36,729 bases of DNA from a virus (lineage: Duplodnaviria; Caudoviricetes), in IMG/VR virus record IMGVR_UViG_3300026187_001225, positions 1 to 36,729 of that record, one strand, 5' to 3'. Numbering within the stretch: position 1 is the stretch's first letter; every line of letters begins with the position of its first letter. Shown here one piece after another: positions 28,230 to 36,729 of the stretch. Made by a program: the position numbers and the translations under genes. A model generated the notes under the pieces. The model was not told where the DNA came from. It made no database searches and worked only from the letters and a program-made list of their open reading frames with translations.

Positions 28230-28247
28230 TGTGCTATCATTTTTTTG

Positions 28248-30065
28248 ATGAAAAGACTTTTATTACCGATAATTATATTATTATCACTCCCACTTATATT
28301 TCAAAGCACACCAACAGAAATATTAAAACTTAAAACTTTTGATACCTTTGTAAAAAAATATGAGCCATCAGGTAACTTTGTAATTTTAAATATTACAGAA
28401 GAAGATGTAGAAAACGAAGGTGGTTATCCTTTCCCAAGAAGAAGATTAGCAGAAATACAAGTAGATTTAATTAATGAAGGTGCTATTGGCGTTGGTTGGG
28501 TTATGTCTTTTCCACAAGCAGACAGAATGGGTGGTGATGAAGTTTTTGCTACGACATTAGGCTACATACCTTCAGTAATAGCCATGTTTGAAGATGGCAA
28601 TAATAATTACCCAAAACCTACAGGAACTGTTGTCAAAGGAGACCATGTTGATGGTATAGTATCTAAGGGAGTCAAGGAAAACCTGAACACCTTATCAAAT
28701 AAAACATTGCAGGGTTTAGCCATTGCTCCCACTGAAGTTGACCAACTTGTTAGAAGAATCCCATTACTTGTAAGCACTCCTGATAAAAACTGGATTCCTT
28801 CTTTTGGCACACAAATATACAAAGCACTTTTTGATGTTAGAACTTATATTATAAAAACTAATGATAATGGTATAGAAGAAATATCAATCAGAGGAATACC
28901 ACCAGTAAAAACAGACAGTCTTGGTCGCAAATGGATAAGTTGGATTGATACACCACAAACCACCTTACAAGAAATGGATGTTGCAGGTAAATTTGTATTT
29001 ATTGGTGTCACAGCTAATGGTGTAATGCCACAATTAGCCACACCAGTTGGATTAATAGAACCACATAAAATACAAACTGCATTAGCAGAATCAATTTTGA
29101 TACAAGACAGTCCTTACATCCCTGACTGGGCATTAGCTGTAGAAATGTTAATTTTTATCTTAACAGTGACTGTAATATGGCTTCTATTAAACGTTTTGGG
29201 TATCACATGGGGTTTGGTATTAGCTCTAACAATAATGTTGTCAACAGCTTATACAGGATTTGCACTTATAAATAAGGGTATTTTAATTGATGTGACATGG
29301 ACACTAATATCTCAGTTTGTTACTGGGTCAATAGCGTTTTATCTTAGATTTAGAGAACAATGGAAACTAAGAGTTCAAATTAAAGGACAATTTGGCACAT
29401 ATATTTCGCCTGATATGGTAGATATGATTGTAAAAGACCCAACTTTGATGAAATTAGGTGGCGATAGAAAAGAAATGACTTTTATGTTTGCAGATATTGT
29501 AGGTTTTACACCAATATCAGAAGCATATATGAAAAAAGATGACCCTGAAGGTTTAGTAGAGCTTATAAATTTATTTTTAGACAAAATGACCAAAACAATT
29601 TTAAAAAATGGTGGAACGATTGATAAATATATGGGTGATTGCATCATGGCTTTTTGGAACGCACCTTTACCTTGCGAAAATCATGCAGAAATGGGTGTAA
29701 AAACAGCAATTGAAATAGAATTGTTGACAGAAGAACTTAACGCAAAACTTAAAGAAGAAGGATATGACTTACCACCAGTTGTGATTGGCACTGGTATCAA
29801 TACTGGAACTTGTATAGTTGGTAATATGGGTTCTGAGCTTAGATTTGATTATTCAGTAGTAGGCGATGCAGTTAATCTTGGTGCAAGACTAGAAGTTCAG
29901 ACAAGAACTTATGATACGCCTATATTAATATCTCAATATACCTTTGAACAAGCAGATATGCCTTGCAAACGTATAGATGAAATAAAAGTCAAAGGTAAAG
30001 AAGAACCAGTAGTAATTTATGCACCATATGTAAAACAAGAAGTAAGAAGTTTGTATAAAAAGTAA
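28248..30065 (+). CDS. CHASE2-domain membrane adenylate cyclase (class III)
   Basis: N-terminal TM; CHASE2-like (I.E......GGYPFPR, D..VRRIPL, TPVG...PH); three TM helices; catalytic FADIVGFT, DKYMGDCIMAFWNAP, GINTG...VGNMGS..RFDYSVVGDAVNLGARLE. Lys/Asp specificity pair indicates ATP. Confidence 0.95.
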   Translation: MKRLLLPIIILLSLPLIFQSTPTEILKLKTFDTFVKKYEPSGNFVILNITEEDVENEGGYPFPRRRLAEIQVDLINEGAIGVGWVMSFPQADRMGGDEVFATTLGYIPSVIAMFEDGNNNYPKPTGTVVKGDHVDGIVSKGVKENLNTLSNKTLQGLAIAPTEVDQLVRRIPLLVSTPDKNWIPSFGTQIYKALFDVRTYIIKTNDNGIEEISIRGIPPVKTDSLGRKWISWIDTPQTTLQEMDVAGKFVFIGVTANGVMPQLATPVGLIEPHKIQTALAESILIQDSPYIPDWALAVEMLIFILTVTVIWLLLNVLGITWGLVLALTIMLSTAYTGFALINKGILIDVTWTLISQFVTGSIAFYLRFREQWKLRVQIKGQFGTYISPDMVDMIVKDPTLMKLGGDRKEMTFMFADIVGFTPISEAYMKKDDPEGLVELINLFLDKMTKTILKNGGTIDKYMGDCIMAFWNAPLPCENHAEMGVKTAIEIELLTEELNAKLKEEGYDLPPVVIGTGINTGTCIVGNMGSELRFDYSVVGDAVNLGARLEVQTRTYDTPILISQYTFEQADMPCKRIDEIKVKGKEEPVVIYAPYVKQEVRSLYKK

Positions 30066-31917: not shown

Positions 31918-32049
31918 ATGGCAAATATTATAGAAGAAACTAAAGAAACACCTTTAATTGTAAAATTATTAAAACAAGCAATTGATGAAGATAATCTTAC
32001 AGACGAAGAAACTTTTGTAGCACACGAACTATACGAAGACTTAAAATAA
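31918..32049 (+). CDS. Small acidic hypothetical protein (not in the ORF track)
   Basis: MANIIEETKETPLIVKLLKQAIDEDNLTDEETFVAHELYEDLK (43 aa); GGAG upstream; fills the gap. Confidence 0.6.
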   Translation: MANIIEETKETPLIVKLLKQAIDEDNLTDEETFVAHELYEDLK

Positions 32050-32052
32050 AAA

Positions 32053-32280
32053 ATGGCTCTAAGCAAAATACAAACAAAAAGACTAGGCAGTATATTATCA
32101 ATTATGTTTAATGAAGAACTGCCTAATGATTTGTATGATAAATTAATCAATGAAGGTTTTGTAAAATTATCTGACAAAGGCTACATATTGACTGAAAAAG
32201 GTATTTCAGAAAAAAATAGATTATGCACTTTAGCAGGTCTTAAAATTCAATATTCTAGTGAGAAACGAGCAACAGGCTAG
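32053..32280 (+). CDS. Hypothetical protein, possible winged helix
   Basis: L..EGFV......Y.LTEKG pattern; last gene of the + strand block. Confidence 0.6.
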   Translation: MALSKIQTKRLGSILSIMFNEELPNDLYDKLINEGFVKLSDKGYILTEKGISEKNRLCTLAGLKIQYSSEKRATG

Positions 32281-32684
32281 ATATCGTTTAAAAATTTTCT
32301 TAATTTTGTAGAACTAAAATTATGTTTTCTGCTGTTGTAATGAATATCAATATTACGTTCTTCACAAATATATTTACCAGTAAAATATTTGTCACGATAT
32401 TCTTCACCTATAATTCTTATATCAATTGCTAAAGTTTTAAATATTGTTTCTAAGTCTTTTTCTGTTTCATACAAAATAATTTCATCAACATATTTGACAG
32501 CAGATAGCTGTATTTGTCTTTCTACTATTGATTGTATGGGTGCTTCTTTATTATCAAACTCTGTGCTTGGATTTATTTGTAAAGCACAGATTAAATAATC
32601 ACAGACAGACTTTGCTTCTTGTAACATGACAACATGACCTGCATGAAGAAGGTCAAATGCACTACAAGTGATTCCTACTTTCAA
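32277..32684 (-). CDS. Cytidylyltransferase (glycerol-3-phosphate cytidylyltransferase/TagD-like)
   Basis: AFDLLHAGH (HxGH), CDYLI, ERQIQL.AVKYVDEI, R.H.FSST.LR. Confidence 0.9.
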   Translation of the reverse strand: MKVGITCSAFDLLHAGHVVMLQEAKSVCDYLICALQINPSTEFDNKEAPIQSIVERQIQLSAVKYVDEIILYETEKDLETIFKTLAIDIRIIGEEYRDKYFTGKYICEERNIDIHYNSRKHNFSSTKLRKFLNDI

Positions 32685-32863
32685 TTGATGTAAATTTTAT
32701 CTTCTAACTTTTTGTATCCATATTGCTTGTGAAATACTAATTCTGCTTCATCTTCTTCAAGTAAAGGTTCTTGATACATTTCCCTTTCTATGCAGTTAGC
32801 AACCCACCATCTAGTAAAATTAACTTCATATGGTGCTTTATCATCATATACAAAATCATTCAT
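32681..32863 (-). CDS. Hypothetical protein
   Basis: 60-aa ORF, ATGA-coupled to both neighbours. Confidence 0.65.
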   Translation of the reverse strand: MNDFVYDDKAPYEVNFTRWWVANCIEREMYQEPLLEEDEAELVFHKQYGYKKLEDKIYIN

Positions 32864-33054
32864 TTGTTTCTCCCCTTTTCATTTAAAATTTCACTTAATC
32901 TAAGTAATAATTCTTTATGTTGTTCATAATTTAGCACTGAATCCTCATGCATTTCAACTATACTTTTGTGAACTTCAATTGCCATCTTATGTATTTCTTT
33001 ATCATTGCTTGATTCTTTTTTTCTATAATCGTCTAAATTAACTACTTTGCTCAT
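32860..33054 (-). CDS. Hypothetical protein
   Basis: 64 aa, begins with the common phage motif VVNLDDYR. Confidence 0.65.
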   Translation of the reverse strand: MSKVVNLDDYRKKESSNDKEIHKMAIEVHKSIVEMHEDSVLNYEQHKELLLRLSEILNEKGRNK

Positions 33055-33211
33055 CTTTATCCCTCATCATATCGTTGTGCATATTCAACCAGTCAATATC
33101 AACTTCATCTTTTCTGTTATCAAAGTAATATAAAATTAATGCAACAGTGTTTCTCCACATAGTGTCAATAAAGTTATCTATTTTTTTTAAAATCTGTTTT
33201 ATAACTTCCAT
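33038..33211 (-). CDS. Hypothetical protein (not in the ORF track)
   Basis: MEVIKQILKKIDNFIDTMWRNTVALILYYFDNRKDEVDIDWLNMHNDMMRDKDEQSS (57 aa); AGGAG RBS; TAATG coupling. Confidence 0.65.
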   Translation of the reverse strand: MEVIKQILKKIDNFIDTMWRNTVALILYYFDNRKDEVDIDWLNMHNDMMRDKDEQSS

Positions 33212-33423
33212 TATAAACTCCTATAATCATTAACTTGTTCTTCTTCTTTCAGCTTTATATATGCGTGTAGGACACTCTCAGGTGTCTCACCTAGCGTTTT
33301 ATTAAAAAGTCTACGCCTTTCTATAATGTTGATTAACTCGTTCTTAGAACGCATATATTCCCATACTTCCATTTCGCCTAGTTCCTCATTAAGTTCTTGT
33401 ATTTGTTCTTTACAATAAAACAT
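33211..33423 (-). CDS. Hypothetical protein
   Basis: 70-aa ORF in a tightly packed - strand block. Confidence 0.65.
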   Translation of the reverse strand: MFYCKEQIQELNEELGEMEVWEYMRSKNELINIIERRRLFNKTLGETPESVLHAYIKLKEEEQVNDYRSL

Positions 33424-33426
33424 TAT

Positions 33427-33636
33427 TTACCCCTGTAATTGTTTCTTAGCTACTCTATGTGAGTCAGCACTGATTATTTTTGTTTGAAAACCTTGTTTTC
33501 TAAATTTAATTGATTGGTCGTCAATAAGACCATATTCATTTGAACGCATCCTTTCAAACCAGTCATTGACTCCTACAGATGGATTCTTTACATATAAGTA
33601 AAAAGTTTTAAGATTTTTATTGCCAACTATTTTCAT
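33427..33636 (-). CDS. Hypothetical protein
   Basis: 69-aa ORF, TAATG-coupled. Confidence 0.65.
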   Translation of the reverse strand: MKIVGNKNLKTFYLYVKNPSVGVNDWFERMRSNEYGLIDDQSIKFRKQGFQTKIISADSHRVAKKQLQG

Positions 33637-33833
33637 TATGATACCTGTAATCCTTGTAATTGATTTTGTAATGTTTCAATTTCTTGTGTGTTTCTTTGAA
33701 TTACCATTCTTGCTTGAAACCTTGTAGCTTCTACTGCATGGTTTAAAGAATTAGACCAATTGTTAGAATTATTTTCTAACCATTCAATTCTTTCATTGAT
33801 ATTTTGGATTCTTGTTGTGTGCCAGTTTGTCAT
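33636..33833 (-). CDS. Hypothetical coiled-coil protein
   Basis: Start ATG at 33833 preferred (AGGAAAATAAAATG); directly downstream of a promoter. Confidence 0.65.
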   Translation of the reverse strand: MTNWHTTRIQNINERIEWLENNSNNWSNSLNHAVEATRFQARMVIQRNTQEIETLQNQLQGLQVS

Positions 33834-33862
33834 TTTATTTTCCTTTTTCATTGTATATACAT

Positions 33863-33892
33863 ATTATAACCCCATATTGGAATAATATGCAA
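33863..33892 (-). promoter_or_regulatory. Sigma70-like early promoter
   Basis: TTGCAT-N18-TATAAT with TATTCCA in the spacer and an AT-rich upstream region. Confidence 0.7.
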
Positions 33893-33919
33893 GTGTTTTT
33901 AACTAAAAAATTAACATAT

Positions 33920-34096
33920 TTACTTAGCTCCTTTAAATAATCTTTTTGCATCACTAATATCTTGGTTAAGTTCATTAACAAGCATTGGTACATGACCAGT
34001 GTTTAAGGTATTGTGTGATAATTCTTGAATTAGTTTTTTTACATCTTTTTCAATATGTAAAAGAGCTTCTAATCTGAAATCTTTTTTATTTATCAT
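33920..34096 (-). CDS. Hypothetical protein (not in the ORF track)
   Basis: MINKKDFRLEALLHIEKDVKKLIQELSHNTLNTGHVPMLVNELNQDISDAKRLFKGAK (58 aa); AAGGA RBS; own promoter. Confidence 0.7.
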   Translation of the reverse strand: MINKKDFRLEALLHIEKDVKKLIQELSHNTLNTGHVPMLVNELNQDISDAKRLFKGAK

Positions 34097-34140
34097 TTTA
34101 TTTTGTCCTTACTCTGTGAGTATCAATTTATTATATCCCT

Positions 34141-34169
34141 AGTATAACCCCATAATGGAATATATACAA
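34141..34169 (-). promoter_or_regulatory. Sigma70-like early promoter
   Basis: TTGTAT-N17-TATACT with TATTCCA in the spacer. Confidence 0.72.
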
Positions 34170-34190
34170 GTGTTTTAAACTAAAAAAATT

Positions 34191-34859
34191 AACATACTTA
34201 CAGACAACAATTAAGCGAAAAATAAGAACAGTAGCGAACTGGATATTTTTCTAGATTTTTATTTACGTGGAAGCTATCCAATCATGTCAAAATTTAGGAT
34301 GAATTAACTCTCTTATTCTACAGGAGTCCTAAATCACACAGTGTACATCTTACTTGCATACAGGTTTTTCACCTTCTACTCAAATTCTTATAATGGTCTT
34401 TCGTGCCTAGTTGCGATATTTTGCTAATTGACAAACTCTTTTGGAGTTCTCAAAAGGATGTTTAATATCCATCAAAATGCTTACTTACCCACAGTATTAC
34501 TACTATTTTTTTCAGAGGACATACTACATAACAGCATCACCTACTTTAATTTGGTTCGTCTCTATGTATACGTTGTGGAACTCATTTAATCCACCCACAA
34601 GTTTTACCTCATGTTCATACCGAATTGCTCATTTTAAAAACTCCTGCTTAAAGCCGAAGATGGGTTTCATGTATCTTTTCGTATTAGTCCATATTACACC
34701 AAGCCTAATTAGTCTCTTTGTCACATCTAAGATATGCTCAAGCCTTCACTTGGTAGGAATCTTTTTTCCTCTATCCATTCAAATTTGATTTTTACTTTCT
34801 TATGTAATTAACATAATTAATAAATAAAAATTTATTTAATTGTTGTTTGTAAATATGTT
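34191..34859 (-). ncRNA. Candidate large structured RNA, domain B (~670 nt)
   Basis: 24-bp terminal inverted repeat 34191-34214/34836-34859 (one G-U and one mismatch on the - strand); many internal hairpins; no - strand ORF of 60 aa or more. Confidence 0.6.
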
Positions 34860-35172
34860 CAATATGCTTTACAGAGCAGGTAGCCACATAGTTTGCCTTT
34901 ACACTGGGAGACCCCTAGCTAGTCAATACATTACATTAGCTTTCTCTGAACCTTACTAAGCTGTTTTTATATAAAAACAGATGCAACAGTTACTAGAGGG
35001 GTTTTTTGCAGTTTAGTCAACATTGACAAAGTTGTACACCCTTGCACTAATCAGGCATAAAGTTCAGGAACTGGTCATCTACTTTATGCACCCTTTCAGA
35101 CTACTCTTAATACTAACAGCGTTTTGCAAATTGCTGTGTTTTTAGAATTTCTGCTCTGTAAAGCACATTGAA
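34858..35172 (-). ncRNA. Candidate structured RNA, domain A (~315 nt)
   Basis: 22-bp terminal inverted repeat 34858-34879/35151-35172 whose single difference is a G-U pair on the - strand; internal helices 35055-35063/35081-35089, 34911-34916/34997-35002 and 34961-34980. Confidence 0.6.
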
Positions 35173-35290
35173 TTTTTTAGTTTAATCTACTCTGAAACAA
35201 TTAAGCGAACATATGGTTCTTAACTTTGTAGAAGTGAGGTTAAGGTCTGTTTTGTGTCGTTTTAACTCTCCAAGCTCCCGACATACATAT

Positions 35291-35320
35291 ATTATAATAC
35301 GAAATGGAATATAAATGCAA
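35291..35320 (-). promoter_or_regulatory. Sigma70-like promoter firing into the non-coding region
   Basis: TTGCAT-N18-TATAAT with TATTCCA in the spacer and an A-rich upstream element. Confidence 0.7.
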
Positions 35321-35349
35321 CACTTTTTGCAACTTTTTTTTAATTATTT

Positions 35350-35691
35350 TTAGAAAGGTAAATCGTCATCTTTTTCATCAATCCATAATGAATTTTTTTC
35401 CCATAATTGTTTTGCATATTCTTGTCCTGCATCTTCTTTAAAACCATAGTGCTTAAAAAATTTAAACTCGTTGCCAAACTTAGTATGTAGTTGTGCATGA
35501 TGAAATGTACATAAAGGAATCACTTGGTCATCACCTGCTTTTAAAGACCATCCTCTTTTTCCATCAGAAGGTTTTAGTAAATGATGTGCTTGTATATTTC
35601 CATTACAAGACATGAACCCTGACCTGCTGATGAAGCATGGCAGAGTTCTGACCCACATTAAATGTTTCTTGTCTTGTAATCTTTTTGTCAT
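35350..35691 (-). CDS. HNH-like His/Cys nuclease-fold protein (DUF968/Ref-like)
   Basis: HL.WVR.LPC, C...QAHHL, IPLC..HH..LH; acidic DDDLPF tail. Confidence 0.7.
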   Translation of the reverse strand: MTKRLQDKKHLMWVRTLPCFISRSGFMSCNGNIQAHHLLKPSDGKRGWSLKAGDDQVIPLCTFHHAQLHTKFGNEFKFFKHYGFKEDAGQEYAKQLWEKNSLWIDEKDDDLPF

Positions 35692-36134
35692 TAAAAAGGT
35701 AAACCATCGTCCTCGTTGTCAGCAGGAAAATAAGATTCTGATTCTTCTTTTTTTACTGCGTCTATTAATCCACATGATAATGTTGAAGTTTTGGTTTCTT
35801 CGTTTTTATTTACCCATCCACCAAATTTTTGACTTACAGTTTGACCATTGCCTAAGTCCACTGTGACCGGACCACCTATGTCAGGTGCGTTTTCTCCTGC
35901 ATTACCATCTTTACGATATAATAGACCAACTGATTGCACTAATTCAAACTTGTCATTAGGATTACCATATTTATCTTTCATTGTCGTCTTAAGAATTGCA
36001 TAGTATTTATCTACACCTCTGTCGTTTTCATTTTCAGGGTCTCTTTTGTGATGTATTGAACCCTTCCAAATTACTTTGGAATTATTCTCTTTCCACATAG
36101 TTCCTTTTCTATCTTTTTTTACATATTCTGTCAT
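35691..36134 (-). CDS. Putative single-stranded DNA-binding protein
   Basis: Beta-rich body, APD..G motif and acidic C-terminus ending DDGLPF, like SSB tails. Confidence 0.5.
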   Translation of the reverse strand: MTEYVKKDRKGTMWKENNSKVIWKGSIHHKRDPENENDRGVDKYYAILKTTMKDKYGNPNDKFELVQSVGLLYRKDGNAGENAPDIGGPVTVDLGNGQTVSQKFGGWVNKNEETKTSTLSCGLIDAVKKEESESYFPADNEDDGLPF

Positions 36135-36138
36135 TTTA

Positions 36139-36477
36139 TTATCCTTTTAAATTAAATTTATATTCATAACCTTTTGAGTTAAGCCTTCTTCTTTTTTCTA
36201 CAATCTCACCATATCTTGGCAAGTCATATAATTCTCTACACCTATCTTTACGCATATTTCTTATACAAGCAGATATAGTGTTTTCCCCATAAAATCTTTT
36301 TCTACGAGCATATTCTTCTCCATACCATCCTACATATGCGTTGACAATCTTTTGTTGTATCTCGTGAAACATAAGCCAGTTGTTATTTATGTAACCCATT
36401 CTAAGTGTCATAAATACACAATCATCAACTGTGTATTTGTTTCTTGGTTTCTTTTCAATGCTTTTTGGAACTTCCAT
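36139..36477 (-). CDS. Hypothetical basic protein, possible DNA-binding
   Basis: 112 aa; F.EIQ..I...Y.E.TISA.IR..RK helix-turn-helix-like pattern. Confidence 0.6.
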   Translation of the reverse strand: MEVPKSIEKKPRNKYTVDDCVFMTLRMGYINNNWLMFHEIQQKIVNAYVGWYGEEYARRKRFYGENTISACIRNMRKDRCRELYDLPRYGEIVEKRRRLNSKGYEYKFNLKG

Positions 36478-36728
36478 TATGCATCCTCGTATAGACTTAA
36501 CATCTTATCTAATCTAGAACGATTCTTGTCACCAATCTCAGTTGATTCATATGCAACTAAGATATTGTCTTTGTTATTTGTAAATGCTTTCTTGTGTAAG
36601 ACGTTGCTAGGGTCAGAAAGATTAGAAGCAAGTATCAATAGATAATCTTCTACACTATTTGCAATTACAGACTCACCACCTGTTTTTTCAAACAAAAACT
36701 TAGGTTCTTCTTTGGTTGCAACTTTTGC
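36477..36728 (-). CDS. C-terminal part of a protein truncated by the window edge
   Basis: The frame of the listed ORF stays open to the window end (AKVATKEEPKFLFEKTGG...). Confidence 0.6.
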   Translation of the reverse strand, partial: AKVATKEEPKFLFEKTGGESVIANSVEDYLLILASNLSDPSNVLHKKAFTNNKDNILVAYESTEIGDKNRSRLDKMLSLYEDA

Positions 36729-36729
36729 T

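What the first reader, a model, noticed from the sequence alone, without database searches (positions are those of the whole stretch)
34191..35290. Promoter-driven ~1.1 kb non-coding locus: two large structured RNAs in tandem, each closed by a long processing-type stem
Seen: the only large gap in a densely coding window, directly downstream of a strong - strand promoter (35291-35320). Two long-range inverted repeats abut at 34858-34859: 35151-35172 with 34858-34879 (22 bp) and 34836-34859 with 34191-34214 (24 bp). Two of their three imperfections are G-U pairs on the transcribed strand, which points to selection at RNA level. Established: long stems flanking RNAs are RNase III processing sites in rRNA operons, and phages encode large ncRNAs of unknown function such as GOLLD and ROOL. 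Inference: a polycistronic ncRNA precursor processed into ~270-nt and ~600-nt RNAs that may act together.
Basis: partly seen in the sequence, partly recalled or inferred. Interest (0 to 1): 0.88.

Follow-up and report, generated by a model that had tools for sequence, protein, structure and literature searches.

The report
Swappable giant-RNA cassette in marine phages
An uncultured marine phage carries an optional, protein-free cassette in which one promoter and a shared leader drive interchangeable, uncatalogued folded RNAs (about 300, 600 and, in relatives, 850 bases) that are likely cut apart by a host enzyme the way ribosomal RNAs are, and whose job in infection is still untested.

Summary
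Both long stems are real (21 of 22 Watson-Crick pairs; best of 200 shuffles 19), and a third stem closes both. Homologues from marine viromes show a modular cassette: promoter, conserved ~100-nt leader, then RNA A alone, A+B (window), C alone or C+B, where C is a third, unrelated ~850-nt RNA. It occurs in a siphovirus and in phages sharing almost no proteins with it; a complete close relative lacks it. RNA B has an 18-helix fold with 32 of 88 pairs showing compensatory change, including a long-range pseudoknot. In one sample the DNA contig runs through the whole locus, while RNA contigs cover only B (depth 39-54) and A (depth 5), separately. No Rfam family matches; ROOL was tested with a positive control, GOLLD without. 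Best reading: a portable RNA operon, likely processed at ~22-bp leader-trailer stems by host RNase III, releasing independent stable RNAs that work like ROOL/GOLLD. Strand, cut sites and function are untested. 'Act together' is not supported, and B's long stem is in 2 of 4 lineages. The scan had not noted this DNA before.

The parts
35291..35320 (-). Sigma-70-type promoter (weak -35 match, 18-nt spacer, perfect -10, A-tract upstream)
   Evidence: Sequence; same position 8-10 nt before the leader in 4 lineages, perfect -35 in L075 and L137; not listed by the scanner
35186..35284 (-). Conserved leader shared by all module combinations; 5-bp hairpin 35283-35279 with 35259-35255 right at the inferred start; possible loop pseudoknot (tentative)
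   Evidence: Alignment A4; nhmmer; hairpin kept in 6 of 6 leaders with one compensatory change
35173..35185 (-). 5' arm of outer 13-bp stem (pairs with 34175-34187)
34858..35172 (-). RNA module A including its 22-bp closing stem; conserved 5' core and 3' end, middle varies by about 0-200 nt between homologues
   Evidence: 6 of 40 pairs change on both sides; 99% of cells paired; RNA contigs 34883-35165 and 34997-35136
35121..35132 (-). Invariant 12-nt hairpin loop of A holding an 8-nt palindrome (35130-35123): candidate self-kissing loop
   Evidence: Identical in 8 of 8 A rows while the stem below covaries; role inferred
34191..34859 (-). RNA module B including its 24-bp closing stem (long stem only in the window and L079 lineages)
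   Evidence: RNA contigs in 6 of 6 RNA runs laid lie within 34212-34847
34281..34817 (-). Conserved folded core of B (~537 nt) closed by a 10-bp helix 34817-34808 with 34290-34281 (6 of 10 pairs compensatory)
34303..34466 (-). Long-range pseudoknot or kissing helix 34466-34462 with 34307-34303; three different sequence versions keep the pairing
   Evidence: helix 15: 2 of 5 pairs change on both sides, 100% paired
34313..34323 (-). Invariant 11-nt loop in the 3' domain of B; partner unknown
   Evidence: Alignment A2
34175..34187 (-). 3' arm of outer stem; also the A/T tract upstream of the next promoter
34141..34169 (-). Downstream promoter copy that bounds the cassette (further copy 33892-33863, flanking a 58-aa ORF 33920-34096)
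   Evidence: Direct repeats D2, D5, D8
35350..35691 (-). Upstream DUF968/HNH-like gene: marks the insertion site, not part of the cassette
   Evidence: 33 of 34 relatives with enough downstream DNA lack the cassette

Best explanation
This is an optional, non-coding phage cassette in which a promoter and a conserved leader precede interchangeable structured RNA modules, each likely released from one precursor by host RNase III cutting a ~22-bp stem, after which the RNAs likely act separately as stable, probably self-assembling particles that would serve as decoys or scaffolds for host RNA-binding proteins during infection. Shown here: the stems, the non-coding nature, covarying folds of A and B, the mix-and-match architectures, the patchy spread across unlike phages, and RNA contigs confined to B and A where DNA is continuous. 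Inferred: transcription from the - strand by host sigma-70 polymerase (about 0.9); separate mature A and B (about 0.7); RNase III as the cutter (about 0.55); movement by recombination between promoter repeats (about 0.6); homo-oligomer or cage formation (about 0.3); decoy or scaffold role (about 0.25, the leading single guess).
For: Stems far above chance and 18-30 bp long in 9 compared cases; an ideal RNase III substrate is 22 bp (PMC3867540, passages); rRNAs sit in such leader-trailer helices (PMC10250234, abstract). B: 88 pairs in 18 helices, 99.8% of cells paired, 32 pairs changed on both sides against 0-3 when partners are slid; 0 of 500 shuffles reach it. A: 6 of 40 against 0-1. Architectures: leader+A (L039), leader+A+B (window, L046, L053, L075, G001), leader+C+B (L079), leader+C (L137), always the same orientation. 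C has its own closing stem (25-26 bp). Same-sample control: DNA contig X13 spans 33530-35430 in one record at depth 24.8, while RNA runs X22 and X23 of that sample give one contig on B (34215/34229-34834, depth 54/39) and a separate one on A (34883-35165, depth 5), with no contig on the leader or bridging A and B. No RNA contig on B from four studies passes 34212 or 34847. DNA joints show natural versions without the cassette (34162 to 35403) and without B (34180 to 34850). Carriers G001 (DNA polymerase A, thymidylate synthase, different portal and capsid) and G004 share 3 and 1 proteins with the window; complete relative G006 shares 41 and lacks all modules. No neighbouring protein is common to all carriers. 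Kissing loops and palindromic loops of the kind seen here are the bridges of ROOL and GOLLD cages (PMC12286853, main-text parts 1-3).
Against: All runs were assembled contigs: no strand, no ends, no level. The six RNA runs were picked because they hold the stretch, so cover of B is partly by choice; X22 and X23 are one sample. A DNA contig in X6 also stops at 34859, so graph branching between variants can break contigs at module edges. X19, X20 and X24 stop near 34273-34289, inside the closing stem's 3' arm, so ends vary. A was seen in only 3 of 6 RNA runs. B's long stem is missing in 2 of 4 lineages. The structure was chosen on the same alignment on which it was counted, which holds only about 4 independent lineages (7 rows); the opposite strand also yields 9 helices with two or more double changes against 12 on the sense strand, as expected for mirror helices, so strand rests on G-U pairs and the promoter. 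No RNase III site determinants were tested and the host is unknown (best capsid match 50%). Nothing here tests oligomers or function.
Confidence: 0.6

Rival explanations
1. One uncut ~1-kb RNA (or a precursor trimmed only by exonucleases): the long stems are folding clamps that insulate domains, and contig breaks come from reverse-transcription stops or assembly.
For: The outer stem makes one closed three-way junction. Leader-trailer helices have a folding role in rRNA (PMC10250234, abstract). The invariant loop of A could pair over 6 nt with an invariant stretch of B at 34553-34548. Contigs cannot show ends.
Against: Ten-fold depth difference between A and B contigs in one sample with even DNA depth; A and B each occur without the other; no covarying A-B helix.
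Confidence: 0.15
2. The modules are very divergent members of GOLLD or ROOL that the Rfam models miss.
For: B core (537 nt) is ROOL-sized; C (845-875 nt) is GOLLD-sized; by eye C shares several 8-11-nt words with the marine GOLLD env-38 sequence printed in PMC12286853 Supplementary Table 4 (visual only, no statistic).
Against: RF03087: no match at E up to 10 in the window and 4 carrier records while the control plasmid scored 130.4 bits; local alignment of that ROOL to A, B, C is within the shuffle range and profiles of A, B, C do not find it. RF02032: no match in the window or 5 carrier records, but no positive control was obtained. No tRNA near any carrier checked.
Confidence: 0.1
3. One or more modules (or the leader) is a new ribozyme that processes the precursor itself or acts on host RNA.
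For: Invariant unpaired stretches inside covarying scaffolds; large bacterial RNAs are enriched for catalysts (PMC5737381, passages); the leader may form a compact pseudoknot.
Against: No Rfam ribozyme, intron, RNase P or tmRNA match at E up to 10 and none by ARAGORN; the cassette interrupts no gene; RNA-contig joints that skip parts also stand in DNA runs, so they are alleles, not splicing.
Confidence: 0.08
4. The inverted repeats work at DNA level, as ends of small mobile elements or recombination sites, and transcription is incidental.
For: Modules swap at or near the stems; the 5' arms of A, B and C stems resemble one another; presence is patchy.
Against: Dense internal covariation and G-U use; no inverted module in any carrier and no strand-change joint in 8 runs; no transposase or shared protein; flanking direct promoter repeats already explain gain and loss.
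Confidence: 0.05
5. Replication origin or decayed protein gene.
For: Largest non-coding gap; one 115-aa antisense ORF.
Against: ORF broken in 4 of 6 homologues and has no family; 33 of 34 relatives and a complete genome lack the region; no iteron array; GC skew turns near 32000, not here.
Confidence: 0.02

Closest known systems
ROOL RNA (Rfam RF03087; PMC5737381 passages; PMC12286853 parts 1-3)
   Same: Phage-borne, about 550-600 nt, multi-junction fold with long-range loop pairing, accumulates as RNA, dispensable, no partner protein next door.
   Different: No model or sequence match; no tRNAs nearby; sits behind a shared leader inside long closing stems with swappable neighbours; cage formation untested.
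GOLLD RNA (Rfam RF02032; PMC12286853)
   Same: Large phage RNA class with marine members; module C of relatives has GOLLD's size and a few shared short words by eye.
   Different: No model match for A, B or C (no positive control); A and B are much shorter; no tRNA array.
Bacterial rRNA operon with leader-trailer helices cut by RNase III (PMC10250234 abstract; PMC3867540 passages)
   Same: Promoter, structured leader, then large RNAs each enclosed by a ~20-30-bp helix in one transcript.
   Different: Cargo is not rRNA or tRNA; cutting not shown; boxA not identified; cargo is interchangeable and optional.
PeSL cassettes of T4-type phages (PMC2839356, abstract only)
   Same: Repeated sigma-70-like promoters flank optional modules in a variable early region; gain and loss fits recombination between repeats.
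   Different: Cargo is RNA, not small ORFs; phages are not T4-like; no terminator found within the window's repeats.
manA RNA (RF01745; bioRxiv 10.64898/2026.07.01.735769, first part read)
   Same: Natural structured RNA of roughly module A's minimal size (~200 nt) that forms closed oligomers.
   Different: No match.

Membership tests
ROOL | Match to RF03087 at or above 99.1 bits | tested here: not met
   No match at E up to 10 in window and 4 carriers; positive control 130.4 bits
ROOL | About 580 nt, several multistem junctions, pseudoknots | tested here: inconclusive
   B core 537 nt, 18 helices, one covarying pseudoknot; ROOL has six junctions and three pseudoknots; no helix-by-helix comparison made
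ROOL | Often beside tRNA genes | tested here: not met
   0 tRNA genes in the window and 12 loci scanned, 9 of them from carriers
ROOL | Octameric RNA-only nanocage | not testable with these tools
   Needs mass photometry or cryo-EM
GOLLD | Match to RF02032 (conserved 3' domain) at or above 150 bits | tested here: inconclusive
   No match at E up to 10 in window and 5 carriers, but no genome with a known GOLLD was found as positive control (0 of 151 and 0 of 3)
GOLLD | Length around or above 800 nt | tested here: not met
   A 315 and B 669 nt with stems; only module C of relatives (845-875 nt) fits
manA | Match to RF01745 | tested here: not met
   (no positive control over the cut-off)
Group I/II intron, RNase P, tmRNA, known ribozymes | Match to their Rfam models or ARAGORN | tested here: not met
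Group I/II intron | Interrupts a gene and is spliced out | tested here: not met
   Lies between genes; skip joints in RNA also stand in DNA
RNase III-processed operon (rRNA type) | Helix of about 20-22 bp formed by sequences flanking each RNA | tested here: met
   A in 4 of 4 lineages (G001 across a 10-N gap), C in 2 of 2 full copies, B in 2 of 4
RNase III-processed operon (rRNA type) | Staggered double cut inside the helix, dependent on RNase III | not testable with these tools
   Only contigs available; their ends stay at or inside the stems, a weak hint
RNase III-processed operon (rRNA type) | boxB-boxA antitermination signal in the leader | not tested
   Leader has a conserved hairpin at its start; no boxA search was run
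PeSL-type cassette | Optional module bounded by direct promoter repeats | tested here: met
   Three related promoters; empty-site and part-loss variants
PeSL-type cassette | Terminator stem-loop within the repeat | tested here: not met
   No - strand terminator-like site in 32000-36729
Protein-guided RNA systems (retron, HEARO/omega RNA, IS bridge RNA) | Cognate reverse transcriptase, nuclease or recombinase gene linked to the RNA | tested here: not met
   No protein shared by all carriers' flanks; the upstream HNH-like gene is uncoupled from the cassette; several carriers are fragments
MITE or invertible segment | Terminal inverted repeats with transposition or inversion | tested here: not met
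   Repeats present, but one orientation in all carriers and no strand-change joints

The most novel reading that the evidence does not exclude
Marine phages of unlike types trade a general-purpose RNA expression platform: a host-style promoter and leader plus standard ~22-bp boundary stems, into which at least three unrelated large RNA families plug like genes in an integron. The platform mimics an rRNA operon so that the host matures the RNAs, which then build RNA-only particles that counter host defence. That would be a new kind of accessory genetic system and three new large RNA classes at once.
Probability: 0.3. Interest if true: 0.92.

Novelty: new variant of a known kind. Interest (0 to 1): 0.76.

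Why it matters
Large structured RNAs of bacteria and phages are few, and the function of ROOL and GOLLD is a long-open question. This locus adds three uncatalogued families (A, B, C) and a natural experiment: close relatives with no cassette, with A, with A+B, with C and with C+B. B shows up as an RNA contig in small ocean RNA libraries while its neighbours do not. The RNAs can be made in vitro at once, so RNase III cleavage, folding and cage formation are directly testable without a cultured host, and the ~200-nt minimal A is a convenient structural target.

Tried and rejected
Rfam: gathering scan of the window (0 hits); E-value scans of the locus and 10 homologous loci gave only sub-threshold hits, none on modules A, B core or C with a sensible family. 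blastn of the locus and of C against 50,697 annotated phages: only short chance matches. Pattern scans: of 58 metagenome matches 11 are true B homologues (one, L112, is identical to the window and left out as probably its own record), 47 are chance; the single bacterial-genome match (L134) has no similarity; L127, L128, L130 are coding chance matches. The apparent tandem duplication of A in G001 spans a 10-N scaffold gap and was treated as two alleles, not two copies. A degenerate pattern meant to catch both C and GOLLD-like RNAs returned only L137's contig. No GOLLD positive control was found. No covariance model of B was built, so no structure-aware search for remote B relatives was made. 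MAFFT misaligned the leader hairpin, so its consensus fold was set aside and the hairpin was read by anchoring. A-B pairing: no support. Absence of RNA cover on leader and flanks is not used as proof of silence. Literature: nine searches showed no paper on these RNAs. Motif searches found nothing in the readable supplements of PMC12286853 (GOLLD alignment not among them, zip cut) and PMC10690425 (3 files not searched); the supplement of PMC5737381 could not be read; an unpublished or supplement-only listing cannot be excluded. Host: not determined.

Full report
Setting. The window is a 36.7-kb virus record, 71% complete: capsid, tail and lysis genes on the + strand and small early-type genes on the - strand from about 32300. 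No cultured close relative exists (best capsid match 50%); Rz-like spanins point to a Gram-negative host. Relatives come from marine and estuarine samples.

Observation. A third 13-bp stem (35173-35185 with 34175-34187) closes both into a three-way junction. The promoter has a weak -35 match here, but its place is kept in four lineages. The gap is non-coding: its one ORF is broken in 4 of 6 homologues.

The unit is optional. Of 38 viral loci with the upstream DUF968/HNH-like gene, 34 had at least 1200 nt downstream and 1 (L039) carried part of the cassette; the others have a promoter and varied small ORFs there. A complete relative sharing 41 proteins lacks every module. The window has three related promoters (35320-35291, 34169-34141, 33892-33863), and DNA contigs show variants without the cassette or without B. 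This fits shuffling between promoter repeats as described for PeSLs (PMC2839356, abstract); the mechanism is inferred.

The unit is modular. Motif scans of viral and metagenome contigs and profile searches over 153 loci gave: leader+A+B (window type L046, L053, L070 and kin; L075/L117; G001), leader+A (L039), leader+C+B (L079) and leader+C (L137; L146 holds the 3' part of C). C is 845-875 nt, 79% identical between L079 and L137, has its own 25-26-bp closing stem and no real similarity to A or B. All modules face the same way as the leader. B was never seen directly behind the leader. G001 is a different phage type (DNA polymerase A, thymidylate synthase, other portal and capsid) and G004/G005 another, sharing 3, 1 and 0 proteins with the window. 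No flanking protein is common to carriers, which argues against a protein-partnered system, though several carriers are fragments.

Structure. For B (7 rows, about 4 lineages, 72-99% identical to the window) a curated 18-helix structure has 99.8% of 616 cells paired and 32 of 88 pairs changed on both sides, against 0-3 when partners are slid. The conserved core is closed by 34817-34808 with 34290-34281 (6 of 10 compensatory). A long-range helix 34466-34462 with 34307-34303 crosses the nested fold and is kept in three sequence versions. For A (8 rows) 6 of 40 pairs change on both sides; its middle is freely variable, and an invariant 12-nt loop holds an 8-nt palindrome. Caveats: few lineages, and the structure was picked on the alignment it was counted on; the opposite strand gives mirror helices (9 against 12 with two or more double changes). 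The long stem around B is only in the window and L079 lineages; L075 and G001 end B in a GC-rich hairpin plus U run, which the terminator scanner did not list because of its large loop. My inference is that B needs a long stem only where no terminator sets its end.

Expression. 24 runs from 15 studies hold part of the stretch, 6 of them RNA from 4 studies. All 6 RNA runs have contigs on B within 34212-34847; 3 of 6 (two are one sample) have contigs on A; none bridges A and B. In one sample the DNA contig spans 33530-35430 at depth 24.8, while the RNA libraries give B at 54 and 39, A at 5, and only scattered short or unlike pieces on the flanks. This argues against DNA carry-over and hints at two separate RNAs. 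It does not give strand, ends or level; runs were chosen for holding the stretch; and a DNA contig in X6 also breaks at 34859.

Mechanism. Shown: anatomy, covariation, modularity, spread, presence in RNA libraries. Inferred: early transcription by host polymerase, folding of ~22-bp stems that match the ideal RNase III substrate length (PMC3867540, passages) in the manner of rRNA leader-trailer helices (PMC10250234, abstract), release of A and B, and accumulation of B. By analogy with ROOL and GOLLD, whose kissing and palindromic loops are inter-chain bridges (PMC12286853, parts 1-3 and two supplement look-ups), the RNAs may self-assemble. The leading guess for purpose is a decoy or scaffold for host RNA-binding or RNA-cutting defence proteins; nothing here tests it. 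A and B acting together is not supported, though one invariant 6-nt complementarity between them remains a lead.

Comparison. No Rfam family matches A, B, C or the leader. ROOL fails with a working positive control. GOLLD gives no match but lacked a control, and C's by-eye likeness to GOLLD env-38 is open. manA fails. So these work like ornate phage RNAs but are not shown members of a named family. Nine paper searches found no description (listed under Tried and rejected). The scan's index had no look-alike stretch for B, C or the locus; a word search showed other phage RNA islands on other DNA.

Verdict. Real, expressed, structured and uncatalogued; new variant of a known kind (large phage RNAs), with an operon-like, swappable organisation that I did not find described. 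Interest 0.76; 0.92 if the platform reading holds (probability 0.3).

Noticed in passing
L079:675-1519 and L137:1877-2752 (part in L146): Module C, a third large RNA (845-875 nt) with its own closing stem and no Rfam match; several short words resemble marine GOLLD env-38 by eye. Deserves its own study.
   Followed up: partly
window 35048-35099, run X24 contig 14: An RNA contig matches only the core of A (6 differences in 52 nt) and runs on unlike on both sides: possibly a more distant, expressed relative of A.
   Followed up: no
window 35339-35407, run X6 contig 23: A DNA contig carries 1095 other letters between the upstream gene and the cassette promoter; content not seen.
   Followed up: no
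window 28245-30065 (+): Phage-encoded CHASE2 plus adenylate/guanylate cyclase protein next to the lysis genes.
   Followed up: no
window 32277-32684 (-); G001 upstream of its cassette: Cytidylyltransferase-like gene and a 2OG-Fe(II) oxygenase are the only proteins shared with the otherwise unlike phage G001 (48% and 34-38% identity), where they lie just upstream of the RNA cassette; hints at a common host or gene pool.
   Followed up: partly
window 33920-34096 (-): 58-aa orphan ORF between two near-identical promoter copies; replaced by other small ORFs in relatives.
   Followed up: partly
5' arms of the A, B and C closing stems: The arms resemble one another (for example 10 identical letters between B of L079 and A of G001), suggesting a common boundary sequence; A/T richness makes chance possible.
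   Followed up: partly
L135:469-478 region of G001 leader and L135:1690-1770: G001 has about 90 extra nt between leader and A and about 150 nt of further non-coding, possibly folded sequence after B.
   Followed up: no
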